DNA from: a virus
Lineage: Duplodnaviria > Heunggongvirae > Uroviricota > Caudoviricetes
Length of the DNA stretch: 7,890 nucleotides
Virus record (IMG/VR): IMGVR_UViG_3300014523_000016
Reading direction: 5' to 3' (one strand)
Below, in pieces: positions 1,697-7,890 of the stretch; position 1 is the first letter of the stretch, and the number at the start of each line of letters is the position of its first letter. Position numbers and translations under genes: made by a program. The notes beneath the pieces were generated by a model. It was not told the DNA's origin. It saw nothing but the letters and a program-made list of their open reading frames with translations, and ran no database searches.

Positions 1697-1721
1697 TATC
1701 CGATCGTANNNNNNNNNNNNT

Positions 1722-3429: not shown

Positions 3430-3562
3430 AAAGANNNNNNNNNNNNNNNNNNNNNNNNNNNNNNNNNNNNNNNNNNNNNNNNNNNNNNNNNNNNNNNNNN
3501 NNNNNNNNNNNNNNNNNCAGTGCAGTGTTTATTCTGTTGTTAGTGCCAAAAATAAAGGCCGA

Positions 3563-4186
3563 CTATGCGGACTCGGAAGGAAGTCCAATCATCTTATTCA
3601 AATCTTCTACCCGTAAAGCAGGAAGTGCTGTACTTGCTTTGTCTGCTTCTTTTGGTAGCAATTCTTTGCTTTCAGGCCAAACTTCAATAAGTCGCTTAAC
3701 TGTTGTGACTGAGTTCAAAGCAGCCCATACATTTGATTCGATATCCTTTTTCTTGGCTTCAAGTTTTTGTTGCAATGCGCAGATTTCATCAAACCTTTTT
3801 GTTATTTCGTGTTCTGCATCAAACATGCATTTATCTTTGGTTGGAGTAGGGAGCAATATATCTTCGCCGTTGCCGTCTTTCCCATATGAATGCCATCCAA
3901 CCCTTCTGCCAGATACAGTCAGATAAATTGAAGTAGAACGAACATCGTATGAGTAAAATGAACATCCCATCTTTTCAAGTTCTTCACTTATAGCTACTAA
4001 CCTGGATGATAACTGATCCACTTCCTCAGTTTTCTTTTTACCGCCAAACGCAATAACTCTGGCGTCAAGTGCAAGCTGGTTCTTTAACTTTGTTACTTCT
4101 TCAAGTTCAGTGAAAACCCCAGACTTAATTAAAGCGTTACGAGCGATTTTCTCTTTCATTCTCGTAGTTAAGCGGATTGATGACAT
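3563..4186 (-). CDS. hypothetical protein (207 aa) between N and cIII; function unknown
   Basis: Within ORF track 3563..4246, whose first codon is TTG. I prefer ATG 4186 (MSSIRLTTRMKEKIARNALIKSGVF...) with SD GAGGA about 9 nt upstream. Lys/Glu-rich with predicted helical stretches, no transmembrane-like segment. No family recognised. Confidence 0.65.
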   Translation of the reverse strand: MSSIRLTTRMKEKIARNALIKSGVFTELEEVTKLKNQLALDARVIAFGGKKKTEEVDQLSSRLVAISEELEKMGCSFYSYDVRSTSIYLTVSGRRVGWHSYGKDGNGEDILLPTPTKDKCMFDAEHEITKRFDEICALQQKLEAKKKDIESNVWAALNSVTTVKRLIEVWPESKELLPKEADKASTALPALRVEDLNKMIGLPSESA

Positions 4187-4247
4187 ATTAATTCCTCTCA
4201 AATAAGTGGTTTGCTGCCTAATTTCATTTTCTGGCGACCAACACAAG

Positions 4248-4520
4248 TCATCTTGCTGTCAGTTGTTTTGATTTCCGATAGCCTGCCGCGTAAAGAGCTA
4301 CATTTGGAAGACAAGTTGAGCCTTCATATTTTCTGGTCAACGTTGTCAGTGTTATTACTTCTGCTCTCATTGCTGGTTTGCGCTTGCATTGCAAGACCAC
4401 TCGTGAAGGGGTTGGCCTGTGTAGCTTGTCGGAGCTGATCGCCTCCTGACTTTGCAGATTTGCACGACGAGCTCTACGGCGAGAAGCTGCGGTGCCTTTA
4501 AATTCTGTTTTTCTGGACAT
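4248..4520 (-). CDS. N: N-like transcription antitermination protein (90 aa) with N-terminal arginine-rich motif
   Basis: Within ORF track 4248..4592. ATG 4520 is preceded by GGAGG with a 5-nt spacer. Residues 13-25 SRRRARRANLQSQ parallel the lambda N arginine-rich motif (RRRERRAEKQAQW, from memory). Lies downstream of a nutL-like element and the pL/OL region. Confidence 0.8.
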   Translation of the reverse strand: MSRKTEFKGTAASRRRARRANLQSQEAISSDKLHRPTPSRVVLQCKRKPAMRAEVITLTTLTRKYEGSTCLPNVALYAAGYRKSKQLTAR

Positions 4521-4619
4521 GGATTCCTCCCGAATAAACTCTGGCGATGCAATCCCGAAGCTACTCCTGAGAGAGTTGCTTCGGCATTGCATCCCACAGC
4601 TTATGTGGTTGGGTGATCT

Positions 4620-4665
4620 GGCTTTTCAGCCACGTAGTCGAGTGTTCGACGTTGTTTAAAGAGCC
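4620..4665 (-). promoter_or_regulatory. nutL-like site: boxA, small spacer hairpin, boxB (read on the minus strand)
   Basis: Minus strand reads GGCTCTTTA (boxA-like, plus 4665..4657), a spacer hairpin GTCGA-ACAC-TCGAC (plus 4650..4637), and boxB GGCTGAAAAGCC (plus 4631..4620, stem GGCT/AGCC, GAAA loop). It aligns closely with the nutR-like element at 7428..7473 (shared GCTCTTT, AACAACG, CTACGT, GCTGAAAAGC). Confidence 0.7.
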
Positions 4666-4710: not shown

Positions 4711-4829
4711 ACTTTATCGAAATGATAAATTAATGGCAATAGCAAAATGATAAATTGTTTTAGTTTTCAAATATCCTGTTGATTATTATGGTTTTTTATT
4801 TGATTGCAGGAATTTATCAGAAGGAATAA
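4711..4829 (-). promoter_or_regulatory. OL/pL-like region: 17-bp operator palindromes and a candidate leftward promoter
   Basis: Perfect 17-bp palindrome TTTATCGAAATGATAAA at 4713..4729. Weaker sites of the same type at 4738..4754 (aatagcAAAATGATAAA) and 4813..4829 (TTTATCagaagGAATAA). On the minus strand a candidate pL has -35 TTGCCA (plus 4739..4734), 17-bp spacer, and -10 TAAAGT (plus 4716..4711), overlapping the first operator. The same -10 hexamer and operator family recur at the OR side. Confidence 0.55.
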
Positions 4830-4937
4830 AGAGACTTGAGGGGGATCAGAATTGCGCGTTTTAGTGAGTTGTATCTGTTTATNNNNNNNNNNNNNNNNNN
4901 NNNNNNNNNNNNNNNNNNNNNGACGCTGTAACCAAAG

Positions 4938-4964: not shown

Positions 4965-5741
4965 CTAGGCTACCAGAGACTCAATCCAAGAGTCTCTGGT
5001 ATGGAATGGCAACACTCGTGCGGTATCATTAAATAGTAGTGATAGTTGCTGTAGCTCAGGTGTTAACCCATCGCTGTCAACTATTACAAATCTATTGTTT
5101 ATGTCAGGAACGACCTGACTTAAGTCAACAATCTTCCCAACTGTTGAGTGGGCAGTATTCCATCCCTTACTGCTGGCAAGGCTTACCGTAAACCCGCGTT
5201 TTGGTGGTATTAGTCGAGACTCATTCCTTAGCGTTAACGGAACAGTAATGTTATGCCCACTAATACCTTTCACTTTTTCCTTTAAGGCTAGTCGCTTCCC
5301 AAGCCCTGCTGATTTTAAGTAACTGATTACACATTTTTCGAACTTATCGTCTTTGACCTCAGCATACCAATCAGCAGTTTGGGCGGATGCAAGAATCCCA
5401 CCACGAATAACATTTGCAGTTACCTGTCCAACGGACGACTCATCTGCCCACGCAGATATCTCTCCAGAGTCATTTAATGAAATTCCTTGCGAAGCGAGTG
5501 ATGACCTGATCAGATCAATTTTCTTTTTAGTCAGGTGGATGCCGCGTGATTCAATATTCATCAATGTATCGCAGTAGTCTGTAACCCTATACTGACCACT
5601 CATCTCTTGAACGAATACACTTATCTGCTCACAATCATCGTAGTATGTGAAGGGACTAATAACGCGCAGCAACGTGTCGCTCATTGGGTGGCATTCAAAC
5701 CCGAGCTTAGATATGACTGTTGAACACGTTACATTTCCCAT
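4965..5741 (-). CDS. hypothetical protein (258 aa), second gene of the cassette in the rexAB-equivalent position; function unknown
   Basis: ORF track 4965..5741. ATG 5741..5739 lies 13 nt upstream of, and out of frame with, the stop of the preceding gene (TAA 5731..5729), suggesting coupling. No transmembrane-like hydrophobic stretch and no motif I recognise. Hand-sampled GC in this cassette is about 37-38% versus about 57% in a cI line. Confidence 0.75.
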   Translation of the reverse strand: MGNVTCSTVISKLGFECHPMSDTLLRVISPFTYYDDCEQISVFVQEMSGQYRVTDYCDTLMNIESRGIHLTKKKIDLIRSSLASQGISLNDSGEISAWADESSVGQVTANVIRGGILASAQTADWYAEVKDDKFEKCVISYLKSAGLGKRLALKEKVKGISGHNITVPLTLRNESRLIPPKRGFTVSLASSKGWNTAHSTVGKIVDLSQVVPDINNRFVIVDSDGLTPELQQLSLLFNDTARVLPFHTRDSWIESLVA

Positions 5742-6271
5742 GATAGCTGACCTGATTTATCTTGATTAGGTAAAGGTGGGCTGCCTTCATATATGATATT
5801 AAGCGCCTCGCAAAAATAATTCCAGTAGCCAAAAAAATCATCTGGCTTGATGTTCGTTTCAAGCTTAAGTGCAATTTCTTCCCCAGCTGATTCGAAGTAC
5901 ATGTGATAGTGAGGACCTCGAGCCACCTCAACAAAATCTGGATGGTTCACTATAGATTTATTACGGTGTGGCTTGTTATCCGCAGGGTACGGGTCAAGCG
6001 CGTAAATGCGCCTGTCATGAAGAAACATCACAAATGAAATCTTCACTATATCCACCCCTTCAACGATAGGAGGACGCCAGTGAAGCATAAATCTTATGCC
6101 TGTGATTGGGTTGCCAATTTCATCAAAAGCTTTGAGATCCAATTTAAACCAGATTGGGGTTCGTCCCTCACTTCCGGTCCATGTAACTCCGCTAAAAGTT
6201 ACTTTTTTCAAGCGAGTAATAGCTTGGTCAACCTCTTTCTGGGTAGGCTTAAAGTCGCCTTTTTTAGCCAC
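5729..6271 (-). CDS. hypothetical protein (180 aa), first gene of the cassette downstream of cI; function unknown
   Basis: ORF track 5729..6271. Start is GTG 6271..6269 with a GGTGA SD-like motif 11-12 nt upstream; first in-frame ATG is about 60 codons in, so the true start is uncertain. Same strand as cI, 97 nt after the cI stop. Contains His/Tyr-rich stretch GPHYHMYF. No family recognised. Confidence 0.65.
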   Translation of the reverse strand: MAKKGDFKPTQKEVDQAITRLKKVTFSGVTWTGSEGRTPIWFKLDLKAFDEIGNPITGIRFMLHWRPPIVEGVDIVKISFVMFLHDRRIYALDPYPADNKPHRNKSIVNHPDFVEVARGPHYHMYFESAGEEIALKLETNIKPDDFFGYWNYFCEALNIIYEGSPPLPNQDKSGQLSWEM

Positions 6272-6368
6272 TGATTCGTATCACCATGAAAGTTATTGTT
6301 AATACCTGTGCTTCTTGTCACCCAAACGTCTCTTCAGGCCACTGGCTATCAGCTATGTGACGATGAAG

Positions 6369-7073
6369 TCACGAACTTTTCAGCCACTCCCTTGCCTCGA
6401 TGTCATCCAGATGGCGAGATTGCTTCAGAATACCAGCCACATACTCCACCTTTGCTACTTGATGATAAGGCAACGTTATTGGCCTATGGTCCTGGTTGAT
6501 GCTTGTAAACTGGTATTCTCCGTCTCTGTCATAGCCAAGAACTTTGATCATGTTGTGTCCTTCAACGGTTCTGACAAACACCTCATCACCCGGGAATACT
6601 TTGGTGTTAGGCTCAATGAGTACATATTCTCCTGATTTTATTCTAGGCCACATGCTGTCTCCTTTCACACGAAGACCAAAGGCATCTGGATCATCGCTAT
6701 AAATCTTGAGCCACCCATCGCGCTCTTCGGTCATCTCGATGGCACCATCAACACCAAGAATTGCCTCACCAACCACGCGCACTAACCCTTTTCTTACCTG
6801 ACCGACAAAAGTTAAAGAATCTGAGCATGATGCAATTGGTGTTACATCATGTACCAAATCAAGCCACCCATTAGGTAACCCAAGTGCGGCTTCGAATTTT
6901 CTTGCTAGTTTATCCCCTATGTTTCGAGTGCTTTTTTCACCGGAGACTTGCGTGAGTTGAGAAGGGCTAACTCCAAGCTTATCGGCAAAGCTTGCATTAG
7001 TGTTACCCGCGATTTTTTTATGCTCATCTAGCAAAAACGCCAGATTCGATTTGCGAATATCTTTGTTTTCCAT
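6369..7073 (-). CDS. cI: cI-type prophage repressor (234 aa): N-terminal HTH plus C-terminal LexA/S24-like autocleavage domain
   Basis: ORF track 6369..7073. ATG 7073 is preceded by GAGGGAG. N-terminal HTH-like segment ASFADKLGVSPSQLTQVSGEK. C-terminal domain has the S24 serine motif GDSM and a Lys (MIKVL) 37 residues later, the LexA-type Ser-Lys dyad spacing. Divergent from cro across an operator region. Confidence 0.9.
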   Translation of the reverse strand: MENKDIRKSNLAFLLDEHKKIAGNTNASFADKLGVSPSQLTQVSGEKSTRNIGDKLARKFEAALGLPNGWLDLVHDVTPIASCSDSLTFVGQVRKGLVRVVGEAILGVDGAIEMTEERDGWLKIYSDDPDAFGLRVKGDSMWPRIKSGEYVLIEPNTKVFPGDEVFVRTVEGHNMIKVLGYDRDGEYQFTSINQDHRPITLPYHQVAKVEYVAGILKQSRHLDDIEAREWLKSS

Positions 7074-7100
7074 CCCACGATTCTCCCTCTATTTAGCAAA

Positions 7101-7177
7101 TGGATAAATACGCATTTTGATAAATCTCCATTGCAGTTTATTTATCAAAATGGTAAAGTTGCTCTGTGTGATAAACG
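7101..7177. promoter_or_regulatory. OR-like operator region between cI and cro
   Basis: Four GATAAA/TTTATC half-sites (7104..7109, 7119..7124, 7141..7146 on the other strand, 7170..7175). An 11-bp inverted repeat ttttgataaat (7115..7125) / atttatcaaaa (7140..7150). A 17-bp site TTTATCAAAATGGTAAA at 7141..7157 matches the OL palindrome type with one mismatch. pRM must lie here but I could not place its hexamers. Confidence 0.6.
7131..7159 (+). promoter_or_regulatory. candidate pR promoter for cro
   Basis: -35 TTGCAG (7131..7136), 17-bp spacer, -10 TAAAGT (7154..7159), about 28 nt upstream of the cro ATG and overlapping the 17-bp operator. Same -10 hexamer and spacing as the candidate pL. Hexamers are moderate matches only. 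Confidence 0.45.
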
Positions 7178-7186
7178 GAGGCACTA

Positions 7187-7420
7187 ATGAGTAATGAACT
7201 ACTACGCTGGCGAAAAGAGGCTTCTAGTGAGGAATGGAAGCGACTCGCCGCATTAGCGAATACTTCAGTTGGCTATCTTGATCAGATTGCATATGGGTTT
7301 CGAAGAGCTTCCCCAGATAAAGCGAATGCAATCGAAGAAGCCACTCGTAATTTCACGGGTTATAAACCTGTGAAAAAGGAAAATCTGGTGTTCGTATCGC
7401 GTAGAGCATCAGCAGCATAA
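7187..7420 (+). CDS. cro: Cro-like HTH regulator (77 aa)
   Basis: ORF track 7187..7420. ATG preceded by GGAGG with a 5-nt spacer. Divergent from cI across the operator region and followed by nutR and cII. HTH-like segment LAALANTSVGYLDQIAYGFRR. Assignment rests mainly on position. Confidence 0.7.
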   Translation: MSNELLRWRKEASSEEWKRLAALANTSVGYLDQIAYGFRRASPDKANAIEEATRNFTGYKPVKKENLVFVSRRASAA

Positions 7421-7427
7421 GTAACCC

Positions 7428-7473
7428 CGCTCTTTGTAACAACGGACATTCGTCCTACGTCGCTGAAAAGCGA
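7428..7473 (+). promoter_or_regulatory. nutR-like site: boxA, small spacer hairpin, boxB
   Basis: boxA-like CGCTCTTTG (7428..7436); spacer hairpin GGAC-ATTC-GTCC (7444..7455); boxB TCGCT-GAAA-AGCGA (7460..7473). Lies between cro and cII as in lambda and aligns with the nutL-like element on the opposite strand. Confidence 0.7.
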
Positions 7474-7558
7474 ATCCCAGAATATCTGACCAACCAAGGC
7501 CATATGCGTTTCCACGCATACCTTTCAACTAGCTATTCACTATTGGAAATCATAAGAA

Positions 7559-7855
7559 ATGGAACAAACAAGTTACAGCAAACTATCCCAGCGTGACGTT
7601 GATCGCGCAGAAACAGATTTACTCATCAACCTGTCAACGCTTACCCAGCGCGGTCTGGCAAAGATGATTGGCTGTCATGAATCGAAGATAAGCAGAACGG
7701 ACTGGAGGTTTATTGCTTCGGTCTTGTGTGCTTTCGGAATGGCATCAGACATCAGTCCGATTAGCAGGGCTTTTAAGTATGCATTGGATGGAATCACAAA
7801 GAAAAAATCCCCGGTTGCCGCCGGGGACTCTAAGCAAATTGATATGCAATTCTGA
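7559..7855 (+). CDS. cII: cII-like transcriptional activator (98 aa)
   Basis: ORF track 7559..7855. The central HESKISRTDWRF segment and the C-terminus TKKKSPVAAGDSKQIDMQF parallel lambda CII (...SQISRWKRDW... and TNKKRPAATERSEQIQMEF, from memory). Weak RBS. Position after cro and nutR is as in lambda. Confidence 0.85.
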   Translation: MEQTSYSKLSQRDVDRAETDLLINLSTLTQRGLAKMIGCHESKISRTDWRFIASVLCAFGMASDISPISRAFKYALDGITKKKSPVAAGDSKQIDMQF

Positions 7856-7880
7856 GGGAATTACTGGATCAATCCACAGG
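7802..7880 (-). ncRNA. OOP-like antisense RNA with its terminator inside the cII 3' end (extent approximate; promoter beyond window)
   Basis: On the minus strand, hairpin CCCCGG-CGGCAA-CCGGGG (plus 7827..7808) is followed by TTTTTT (plus 7807..7802), an intrinsic terminator antisense to cII codons KKKSPVAAGD. Lambda OOP RNA ends in a very similar GGTTGCCGCCGGG hairpin plus U-tract at the same place in cII (from memory). The 5' end is inferred from the lambda length of about 77 nt, not seen. Confidence 0.4.
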
Positions 7881-7887
7881 AGTAATT

Positions 7888-7890
7888 ATG
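7888..7890 (+). CDS. start codon of the next rightward gene (replication-initiator position), truncated by the window end
   Basis: AGGAG at 7877..7881 followed 6 nt later by ATG at 7888..7890, 32 nt after the cII stop. Only the start codon is in the window; the O-like identity is inferred from lambdoid gene order. Confidence 0.3.

What the first reader, a model, noticed from the sequence alone, without database searches (positions are those of the whole stretch)
4620..4665. nutL and nutR are near-identical mirror elements with a covarying extra hairpin between boxA and boxB
The minus-strand nutL (GGCTCTTTAAACAACGTCGAACACTCGACTACGTGGCTGAAAAGCC) and plus-strand nutR at 7428..7473 (CGCTCTTTGTAACAACGGACATTCGTCCTACGTCGCTGAAAAGCG) share boxA, an AACAACG block, CTACGT, and the boxB core GCTGAAAAGC. 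Between boxA and boxB each has a small hairpin whose stem differs in sequence but keeps pairing (GTCGA/TCGAC versus GGAC/GTCC). That covariation suggests the spacer hairpin is functional, and the boxA-boxB spacing of about 23-25 nt is longer than I recall for lambda. Together with the N arginine-rich motif this gives a self-consistent N-dependent antitermination system.
Basis: seen in the sequence. Interest (0 to 1): 0.55.

Follow-up and report, generated by a model that had tools for sequence, protein, structure and literature searches.

The report
Known spacer hairpin in phage nut sites
The two elements are the real nutL and nutR antitermination sites of an E. coli lambdoid prophage, and their extra hairpin is real and conserved by base-pairing, but it is the stem-loop already described and mutationally tested in Shiga-toxin phage H-19B, so it is ordinary.

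Summary
nutL lies about 40 nt downstream of a pL-like promoter and upstream of an N gene. nutR lies between cro and cII.

Each site reads boxA, an ACAAC block, a 4-5 bp hairpin, UACG, then a 5-bp boxB stem capped by a GAAA tetraloop.

Across 19 distinct natural variants with 7 different stem sequences, 95.8% of stem cells pair, against 60% in shuffles. Four of the five stem pairs show changes on both sides. Loops vary freely in sequence and length.

It is not new. The window's cI-cro-nutR-cII block is 96% identical to phage H-19B, and H-19B nutR carries the identical hairpin. The H-19B nut stem-loop is published (Neely & Friedman 2000), and later work states that H-19B nutR has two hairpins.

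The N protein is 100% identical to that of VT2-Sakai and many other Stx phages, whose records already annotate nutL.

Two differences from H-19B are minor. boxB here has a GAAA loop instead of GACAA, matched to a different arginine-rich motif in N. boxA here is consensus, not degenerate.

Verdict: real, functional, already known, low interest.

The parts
4619..4665 (-). nutL, whole element: boxA, ACAAC block, spacer hairpin, UACG, boxB
   Evidence: About 40 nt downstream of the pL-like promoter and 99 nt upstream of the N start codon. The homologous site is annotated 'putative N-utilization leftward' in VT2-Sakai.
4658..4665 (-). nutL boxA core GGCUCUUU, followed by AAACAAC (4657-4651), which resembles the rrn-type extended boxA
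   Evidence: The ACAAY block is kept even in H-19B/933W nutL, which lack a boxA core.
4637..4650 (-). nutL spacer hairpin: GUCGA (4650-4646), loop ACAC, UCGAC (4641-4637)
   Evidence: pairing probability 0.89; covariation
4619..4632 (-). nutL boxB: 5-bp stem UGGCU/AGCCA closing a GAAA tetraloop (4627-4624); preceded by conserved UACG (4636-4633)
   Evidence: Stem bases covary between sites (UGGCU/AGCCA, UCGCU/AGCGA, CAGCU/AGCUG).
7428..7473 (+). nutR, whole element, between cro (ends 7420) and cII (starts 7559)
   Evidence: Lies in a block 96% identical to H-19B cI-cro-nutR-cII.
7428..7435 (+). nutR boxA core CGCUCUUU, followed by GUAACAAC (7436-7443)
   Evidence: H-19B has a degenerate CGCUAUUU here.
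7444..7455 (+). nutR spacer hairpin: GGAC, loop AUUC, GUCC. Identical to the H-19B nutR hairpin.
   Evidence: (pairing probability 0.99)
7460..7473 (+). nutR boxB: stem UCGCU/AGCGA with GAAA tetraloop (7465-7468); preceded by UACG (7456-7459)
   Evidence: H-19B has a GACAA loop at the same place.
4248..4520 (-). N antiterminator gene, 90 aa, arginine-rich motif at residues 13-19 (SRRRARR), GGAGG ribosome-binding site upstream
   Evidence: Pfam PF25694 at 111 bits; PHROG 271 'anti-termination protein N-like'; 100% identical to N of VT2-Sakai, Stx1-converting phage and others; 41% identical to H-19B N with an identical C-terminus.
4711..4739 (-). pL-like promoter (TTGCCA, 17 nt, TAAAGT) that would drive the nutL-N transcript
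   Evidence: consensus match only. The homologous stretch is annotated as the major leftward promoter in VT2-Sakai.
6369..7073 (-). cI-type repressor (Peptidase_S24 C-terminal domain); the immunity region flanked by the two nut sites
   Evidence: 96% identical block with H-19B cI
7187..7420 (+). cro
   Evidence: Same length and a constant offset of 1796 relative to H-19B cro; annotated Cro in matching phages.
7559..7855 (+). cII
   Evidence: Pfam Phage_CII, E = 2e-31

Best explanation
These are the nutL and nutR sites of an E. coli lambdoid prophage of the H-19B/Stx-phage lineage. On the nascent pL and pR transcripts, N binds the boxB GAAA hairpin through its arginine-rich motif. Host Nus factors assemble on boxA and the spacer. 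RNA polymerase then becomes resistant to termination.

The extra hairpin is the spacer stem-loop already described for H-19B NUT sites. It loops out 12-14 nt. The conserved single-stranded blocks on either side (ACAAY and UACG) are then brought together, and the effective boxA-boxB distance falls from 24-25 nt to 11-12 nt, the spacing of hairpin-less relatives such as P22.

Shown here: the anatomy, the identity with H-19B nutR, pairing conserved by natural covariation, and the match between N ARM type and boxB loop type. Inferred: the spacing-reduction mechanism and the binding of Nus factors.
For: Context:
- Positions and gene context.
- The window's cI-cro-nutR-cII block is 96% identical to H-19B.
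- H-19B nutR has the identical GGACATTCGTCC hairpin followed by CTACGT.

Covariation:
- Seven stem types (GGAC/GTCC, GTCGA/TCGAC, GGTGA/TCACC, GGTGAA/TTTACC, GAAGAT/ATCTTC, GGCC/GGCC, GATTC/GAATC) and more than 12 loop sequences of 3-6 nt, always exactly between ACAAY and UACG.
- 95.8% of cells paired against 60.4% in shuffles, 32 cells with changes on both sides, slide controls 27-53%.
- The three G-U cells in the stem would be C-A mismatches on the other strand. This points to an RNA structure on the transcribed strand rather than a DNA palindrome.

Folding:
- The hairpin has pairing probability of at least 0.87 in all 18 variants folded, and the two-hairpin fold is the MFE in 15 of 18.

Spacing:
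- With the hairpin removed the spacing is 11-12 nt.
- P22 nutL, which has no hairpin, has 12 nt.
- A natural hairpin-less site in L090 has 11 nt and still ends in UACG.
- Lambda has 8-9 nt.

N and boxB types go together:
- ARM GxxAxRRR[AE]RRxxLQ goes with a GAAA loop across N proteins down to about 50% identity.
- The H-19B/933W ARM goes with GACAA, and the phiSTEC1589 ARM variant goes with GCAA.

Literature:
- H-19B nutR is described as having 'two hairpins', with the spacer and boxB protected by N+NusA (PMC3526286).
- The title of Neely & Friedman 2000 (PMID 11123680) refers to 'alternative NUT RNA structures'.
- From my own memory of that abstract, not re-read here: changes in one arm inactivate NUT, compensatory changes restore it, deleting the dyad has little effect, and the stem-loop was named the 'reducer'.
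Against: - No experiment exists for this particular allele, which combines a consensus boxA, a GAAA boxB and the 90-aa N.
- The primary H-19B paper could not be read here, so the mutational evidence and the 'reducer' model rest on my recollection plus the title.
- For the window's own nutL, thermodynamic folding of the free RNA prefers a long-range boxA:boxB-3'-arm helix by 2.9 kcal/mol over the two-hairpin fold. In that ensemble boxB has pairing probability 0.01. boxB formation in vivo must therefore rely on co-transcriptional folding or on protein binding.
- Covariation shows that the helix is selected. It does not show why.
Confidence: 0.85

Rival explanations
1. The spacer hairpin is mainly part of the Rho-utilisation (rut) logic of the nut/tR1 region. 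By folding part of the spacer it tunes how Rho or NusA load on the RNA next to boxB, and the boxA-boxB distance is not the point.
For: In H-19B, Rho footprints on the nutR spacer (about 22 nt) and competes or co-occupies with N-NusA there (PMC3526286). The window's nutR spacer is identical to H-19B's from the hairpin through CUACGU. Lambda annotates rutA and rutB flanking nutR.
Against: The same type of hairpin is conserved in nutL as well as nutR. Stem and loop sequences vary freely, so C-content and other Rho-relevant features are not conserved. The two roles are not mutually exclusive.
Confidence: 0.08
2. The hairpin is the apical cap of a longer alternative helix in which boxA (GCUCUUU) pairs with the 3' half of boxB (AAAAGC). 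This would sequester boxB until NusB/S10 or N opens it, giving a gating switch.
For: This fold is the MFE for the window's nutL (-15.1 against -12.2 kcal/mol for two hairpins) and nutR (-11.5 against -11.1). The first boxA base matches the boxB stem in both window sites (G..C in nutL, C..G in nutR).
Against: It is the MFE in only 3 of 18 variants. It is impossible in H-19B/933W/g341c nutL, which lack a boxA core. The outer pair is broken in many relatives: C, A or U opposite C in L008, L025, L054, L034 and phiSTEC1589 nutL, and C opposite U in L104 nutR and L092a. The GCU/AGC complementarity follows from two independently conserved motifs.
Confidence: 0.04
3. The hairpin is a sequence-specific binding site for a protein (a second N-binding site, NusA or another factor), or a DNA-level palindrome such as an operator.
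For: The spacer is protected by N+NusA in H-19B. Palindromes are typical DNA-binding sites.
Against: Seven unrelated stem sequences and more than 12 loops of 3-6 nt leave nothing for sequence-specific recognition except the closing G-C pair. G-U cells indicate a strand-specific RNA structure. Related functional nut sites such as P22 and lambda lack the hairpin. The plus-strand 'terminator-like' call at 4637-4650 is only the complement of the 5-bp stem, and that scan found 4 sites against 2.8 expected.
Confidence: 0.03

Closest known systems
NUTR and NUTL of Shiga-toxin phage H-19B (also 933W), with the spacer stem-loop (Neely & Friedman, Mol Microbiol 2000, PMID 11123680)
   Same: - Architecture: boxA position, ACAAY, hairpin, CUACG, boxB.
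- The nutR hairpin GGAC-AUUC-GUCC and the following CUACGU are identical.
- The surrounding cI-cro-cII block is 96% identical.
- N shares the C-terminal LPNVALYAAGYRKSKQLTAR.
   Different: - boxB loop is GAAA (4 nt) here and GACAA (5 nt) in H-19B.
- boxA is consensus here (CGCUCUUU / GGCUCUUU). In H-19B it is degenerate (CGCUAUUU in nutR) or absent (nutL).
- The nutL stem is GUCGA/UCGAC here and GAUUC/GAAUC there.
- N is 90 aa with a different, 7-residue-shorter ARM region, against 127 aa.
- The reported independence of H-19B N from boxA, NusB and S10 may therefore not apply to this allele. That is an inference.
N/nutL of VT2-Sakai (Sp5), Stx1-converting phage, phage 2851, YYZ-2008 and many E. 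coli prophages
   Same: - N is 100% identical.
- The N/nutL segment is about 96% identical.
- nutL differs only in the hairpin loop: ACAC here, CUC or ACUC there.
- The exact window nutL and nutR strings recur in IMG/VR prophage contigs.
- nutL is already annotated in AP000422.
   Different: Essentially nothing at the nut sites. This window combines that N/nutL module with an H-19B-type immunity region, which is ordinary lambdoid mosaicism.
Lambda nutL and nutR
   Same: boxA, spacer and boxB order; positions downstream of pL and after cro; a purine-rich GNRA-like boxB loop; a cognate N with an arginine-rich motif.
   Different: Lambda's spacer is 8-9 nt and has no dyad symmetry. Its boxB is a 5-bp stem with a pentaloop, GAAAA or GAAGA. 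Lambda N itself was not compared here.
P22 nutL and gp24
   Same: The same N C-terminal module. boxA GCUCUUUAAC. A 12-nt linear spacing that equals this window's spacing once the hairpin is looped out.
   Different: No spacer hairpin and no UACG block. boxB loop is GACAA.
HK022 put sites (RNA-only antitermination by two stem-loops)
   Same: Two adjacent small RNA hairpins in the early leaders of a lambdoid phage.
   Different: As I recall them, put sites act without any N protein and lack boxA and boxB. Here a full N gene, boxA and an ARM-matched boxB are present. Not a put site.

Membership tests
Lambdoid N-utilisation (nut) site | Located in the pL and pR early transcripts: nutL between pL and N, nutR between cro and cII/tR1 | tested here: met
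   nutL at 4665-4619 is downstream of a pL-like promoter (4739-4711) and upstream of N (start 4520). nutR at 7428-7473 is between cro (ends 7420) and cII (starts 7559)..
Lambdoid N-utilisation (nut) site | boxA element close to CGCUCUU(U)A | tested here: met
   GGCUCUUUA (nutL) and CGCUCUUUG (nutR). Lambda's CGCUCTTA was read.
Lambdoid N-utilisation (nut) site | boxB: a short hairpin with a GNRA-like purine-rich loop 3' of boxA | tested here: met
   5-bp stems UGGCU/AGCCA and UCGCU/AGCGA closing GAAA. The stem covaries between sites..
Lambdoid N-utilisation (nut) site | A cognate N protein with an N-terminal arginine-rich motif encoded next to nutL | tested here: met
   Pfam PF25694 N_peptide at 111 bits against a cut-off of 27.9. 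ARM type tracks the boxB loop type across relatives.
Lambdoid N-utilisation (nut) site | N- and nut-dependent readthrough of downstream terminators | not testable with these tools
   Needs a reporter or in vitro transcription assay. Published for H-19B N and nutR (PMC3526286), not for this allele.
H-19B-type NUT site with spacer stem-loop | Dyad symmetry between boxA and boxB that is absent from lambda and P22 nut sites | tested here: met
   for the window; for H-19B. Absent in P22 and lambda.
H-19B-type NUT site with spacer stem-loop | Pairing matters and sequence does not (compensatory changes tolerated) | tested here: met
   Natural covariation: 95.8% paired, 4 of 5 pairs with changes on both sides, 0 of 500 shuffles reach the observed value. 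The mutational version of this test is published for H-19B, by my recollection, and was not re-read.
H-19B-type NUT site with spacer stem-loop | Homology to the H-19B sites themselves | tested here: met
   The nutR hairpin plus CUACGU is identical, within a 96% identical block.
H-19B-type NUT site with spacer stem-loop | Reduced host-factor requirement (boxA, NusB and S10 dispensable) | not testable with these tools
   Unlike H-19B, both window sites have a consensus boxA (against 25-26), so this property may differ. It needs tests in nusB/nusE mutant hosts.
P22/H-19B boxB specificity class (GACAA pentaloop) | boxB loop GACAA | tested here: not met
   The loop is GAAA in both window sites. H-19B, 933W and P22 have GACAA. 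This is the VT2-Sakai-type specificity class.
HK022 put RNA | Protein-independent antitermination RNA: no N gene, no boxA or boxB | tested here: not met
   An N gene, boxA and boxB are all present.

The most novel reading that the evidence does not exclude
In this allele class, unlike H-19B, a consensus boxA (GCUCUUU) is complementary to the 3' half of the GAAA boxB (AAAAGC). The spacer hairpin could then cap a long-range boxA:boxB helix, predicted to be 2.9 kcal/mol more stable than the two-hairpin fold in nutL. That helix would hide boxB until NusB/S10 binds boxA or N captures boxB. The result would be a structural gate on antitermination-complex assembly.

A milder novel point: boxB here is a true 4-nt GNRA tetraloop with no extruded base, so this N would read boxB without the extra loop nucleotide present in the lambda and P22 pentaloops.
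Probability: 0.05. Interest if true: 0.45.

Novelty: already known. Interest (0 to 1): 0.12.

Why it matters
It matters little beyond annotation.

It shows that the H-19B-type spacer stem-loop is a widespread modular feature, not a peculiarity of one phage:
- It occurs with at least four boxB types: GACAA, GAAA, GCAA and a divergent SPN9CC form.
- It occurs in prophages of Escherichia and Salmonella, and in contigs labelled Citrobacter and Serratia.
- Natural covariation independently supports the published mutational result.

It also flags that the very common VT2-Sakai-type N/nut allele in Stx phages differs from the studied H-19B allele. It has a consensus boxA and a tetraloop boxB. Host-factor requirements measured for H-19B should therefore not be assumed for it. 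N-dependent readthrough contributes to Stx-phage early gene expression, so that is a modest practical point.

Tried and rejected
- Primary paper: Neely & Friedman 2000 is not held. Searches for 'reducer'+H-19B, 'dyad symmetry'+H-19B and H-19B+NusB+stem-loop found no accessible description. Only the title and the Sen-lab 'two hairpins' statement could be cited.
- Rfam: no family matches the nut sites, even at E up to 1.
- N-homolog sampling: the genome-contig scan gave only 3 loci. The viral-contig scan returned 80 loci that were 98-100% identical to the window's N and added no diversity. Diversity came from the pattern scan and the phage protein search.
- Full-length MAFFT alignment A1 put three sequences 2 nt out of register and misplaced the GACAA loops. 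It was replaced by the anchor-to-anchor alignment A2.
- Long-range boxA:boxB pairing from the first fold: not conserved, so kept only as a low-probability rival.
- A lower-stem extension, ACG...CGU flanking the hairpin: rejected. The 3' base after UACG is U, C, G or A in different variants and the 5' side is AAC or AAU.
- Plus-strand terminator-like call at 4637-4650: this is only the complement of the 5-bp stem, with a weak T tract. The scan found 4 sites against 2.8 expected.
- About half of the 120 pattern-scan loci were chance matches in unrelated contigs, with no UACG and no lambdoid context. Two UACG+boxB-like chance hits (L027, L066) had no boxA core and no hairpin, and were left out of the covariation set.

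Full report
**Observation.**
- nutL is at 4665..4620 on the minus strand, and base 4619 completes the boxB stem.
- nutR is at 7428..7473 on the plus strand.
- The pattern GCTCTTT-N(12-40)-GCTGAAAAGC hits only these two places, against none in 200 shuffles.
- Each element reads: boxA core, (A)ACAAC, hairpin, UACG, then a 5-bp boxB stem closing a GAAA tetraloop.
- The hairpins are GUCGA-ACAC-UCGAC (nutL) and GGAC-AUUC-GUCC (nutR). Three of their four shared pairs differ on both sides.
- The chance of such a terminal stem in the segment between the two anchors is about 0.001-0.007 for nutL and 0.02 for nutR.
- The two elements are 37/48 aligned columns identical, so 'near-identical' is too strong.

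**Context.** The window is a lambdoid immunity region in an E. coli prophage.
- It is 99.6% identical to the chromosome of strain 2824, and parts of it occur in 1798 of 5426 complete E. coli genomes.
- N (4248-4520, minus strand, 90 aa) matches Pfam N_peptide full length at 111 bits.
- N lies 99 nt downstream of nutL, which itself lies about 40 nt downstream of a pL-like promoter.
- A cI-type repressor (6369-7073), cro (7187-7420) and cII (7559-7855) follow, with nutR between cro and cII.
- The N/nutL segment is about 96% identical to VT2-Sakai, Stx1-converting phage and others, and N is 100% identical to theirs.
- The VT2-Sakai record already annotates the homologous nutL, and the 933W record annotates its own.

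**Relation to H-19B.**
- The window's cI-cro-nutR-cII block (6318-7890) is 96% identical to phage H-19B, but the N/nutL segment is not.
- H-19B nutR reads CGCTATTTTCACAATGGACATTCGTCCTACGTCGCTGACAAAGCGA. It has the same hairpin and the same CTACGT. It differs in having a degenerate boxA and a GACAA boxB loop.
- H-19B and 933W nutL carry another stem again, GATTC-GAATAT-GAATC, in front of TACG and GCGCTGACAAAGCGC, with no recognisable boxA core.

**Covariation across relatives.**
- A pattern scan of IMG/VR and scripts recovered many nut sites of this lineage.
- The hairpin always sits exactly between a conserved ACAAY block and a conserved UACG block.
- Seven different stems occur: GGAC/GTCC, GTCGA/TCGAC, GGTGA/TCACC, GGTGAA/TTTACC, GAAGAT/ATCTTC, GGCC/GGCC and GATTC/GAATC.
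- More than a dozen loop sequences of 3-6 nt occur.
- An alignment of 19 distinct variants, anchored only by the conserved flanks, gave the following:
  - 95.8% of stem cells paired, against 60.4% in shuffles (0 of 500 shuffles reach it).
  - 4 of 5 pairs with changes on both sides, in 32 cells.
  - A covariation score of 0.885 against 0.193.
  - 27-53% pairing when partners are slid by 1-3 columns.
- The closing G-C pair is invariant.
- The few G-U cells indicate an RNA structure on the transcribed strand.

**Folding.**
- The hairpin has pairing probability of at least 0.87 in all 18 variants folded.
- The two-hairpin fold (spacer plus boxB) is the MFE in 15 of 18 variants.
- In the window-type sites only, a long-range helix between boxA (GCUCUUU) and the 3' half of boxB (AAAAGC) is more stable, by 2.9 kcal/mol for nutL and 0.4 for nutR.
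- That helix is not conserved. It is impossible where boxA is missing, and its outer pair is broken in many relatives. I treat it as a by-product of two independently conserved motifs.

**Spacing.**
- From boxA to the boxB stem is 25 nt (nutL) and 24 nt (nutR). Lambda has 8 and 9 nt.
- With the hairpin looped out, 11-12 nt remain.
- P22 nutL, which has no hairpin, has 12 nt.
- A natural hairpin-less site in L090 has 11 nt and still ends in UACG.
- HK140, ECP1 and mEpX2 nutL also lack the hairpin.
- This pattern is what the published spacing-reduction model predicts.

**N and boxB specificity.**
- The GAAA loop always accompanies the ARM FxGxxAxRRR[AE]RRxxLQ, even in N proteins only about 50-70% identical to the window's (L034, L054, L104, and the Citrobacter and Serratia contigs).
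- The H-19B/933W ARM (GNSRSRRRERLKAKALANG) accompanies GACAA.
- phiSTEC1589, with an ARM substitution, has GCAA.
- g341c has a hybrid N, with a window-type ARM and an H-19B-type middle. It pairs a GAAA boxB with the H-19B nutL stem.
- The hairpin module and the boxB/ARM module therefore reassort independently.

**Literature.**
- PMC3526286 states that H-19B nutR has two hairpins, and that the spacer and boxB are protected by N+NusA. It also reports that Rho footprints on the spacer.
[quoted passage not shown] It is not held here.
- From my own memory of its abstract:
  - The spacer dyad symmetry is unique to H-19B-type nut sites.
  - One-arm changes inactivate the site.
  - Compensatory changes restore it.
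  - Deleting the dyad has little effect.
  - The stem-loop ('reducer') was proposed to bring flanking sites together.
  - H-19B N needs NusA but not NusB, S10 or boxA.

**Verdict.** The finding is real and correctly interpreted, but it rediscovers a published element. The nutR hairpin here is the very one studied in H-19B. What differs from H-19B is a consensus boxA, a GAAA tetraloop boxB and a shorter N with another ARM. These are features of the common VT2-Sakai-type allele, whose records already annotate N and nutL. Novelty: already known. Interest is low.

Noticed in passing
window 4965-5741 (-) and 5729-6271 (-): Two overlapping genes (258 aa DUF1828; 180 aa DUF6978-like) lie between pL/nutL and cI, where lambda has rexAB. 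They weakly match both components of the PADLOC candidate defence system PDC-M24 (B: 5e-7; A: 4e-4), and match PHROGs 1960 and 2017 of unknown function. H-19B has unrelated DNA at this position. This may be a lysogen-expressed defence or exclusion module.
   Followed up: partly
window 7465-7468 and 4624-4627; L123 5668-5672: Within a block 96% identical to H-19B, the nutR boxB loop differs by a single-base deletion (GACAA to GAAA). That difference matches the different N ARM encoded 3 kb away. boxA is also locally diverged (CGCUAUUUUCACAAU in H-19B, CGCUCUUUGUAACAAC here) while the hairpin between them is unchanged. This looks like localised co-adaptation or micro-recombination within nutR.
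   Followed up: partly
L090 1448-1540; L092 1545-1840: These viral contigs carry tandem nut-like sites on one strand with different boxB loops. L090 has a hairpin-less GAAAA site immediately followed by a hairpin-containing GAAA site. L092 has a GAAA site and a GACAA site about 230 nt apart. They may be dual-specificity leaders or recombination scars.
   Followed up: no
L210 (Salmonella phage SPN9CC) about 458-520: nutL has the GATTC/GAATC spacer hairpin and UACG, followed by a divergent boxB-like GCUCCGUCAACGAGC. Yet its N has an H-19B-like ARM, which is an exception to the ARM/boxB-loop correlation.
   Followed up: no
window 1709-1720, 3435-3517, 4883-4921: Runs of N (masked or unresolved bases) interrupt the window. 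The third lies just left of the DUF1828 gene's 3' end and close to nutL/pL.
   Followed up: no
window 3563-4246 (-): An ORF of about 207-227 aa immediately downstream of N (PHROG 1965, unknown function; no Pfam scan was run for it and PADLOC gave no hit). It occupies the first delayed-early position of the pL operon.
   Followed up: partly
window 4521-4592 (-): The N reading frame is open for 24 further codons upstream (MQCRSNSLRSSFGIASPEFIREES-). The GGAGG ribosome-binding site and the annotated homologs (273-bp CDS in VT2-Sakai) support the 90-aa start at 4520.
   Followed up: yes
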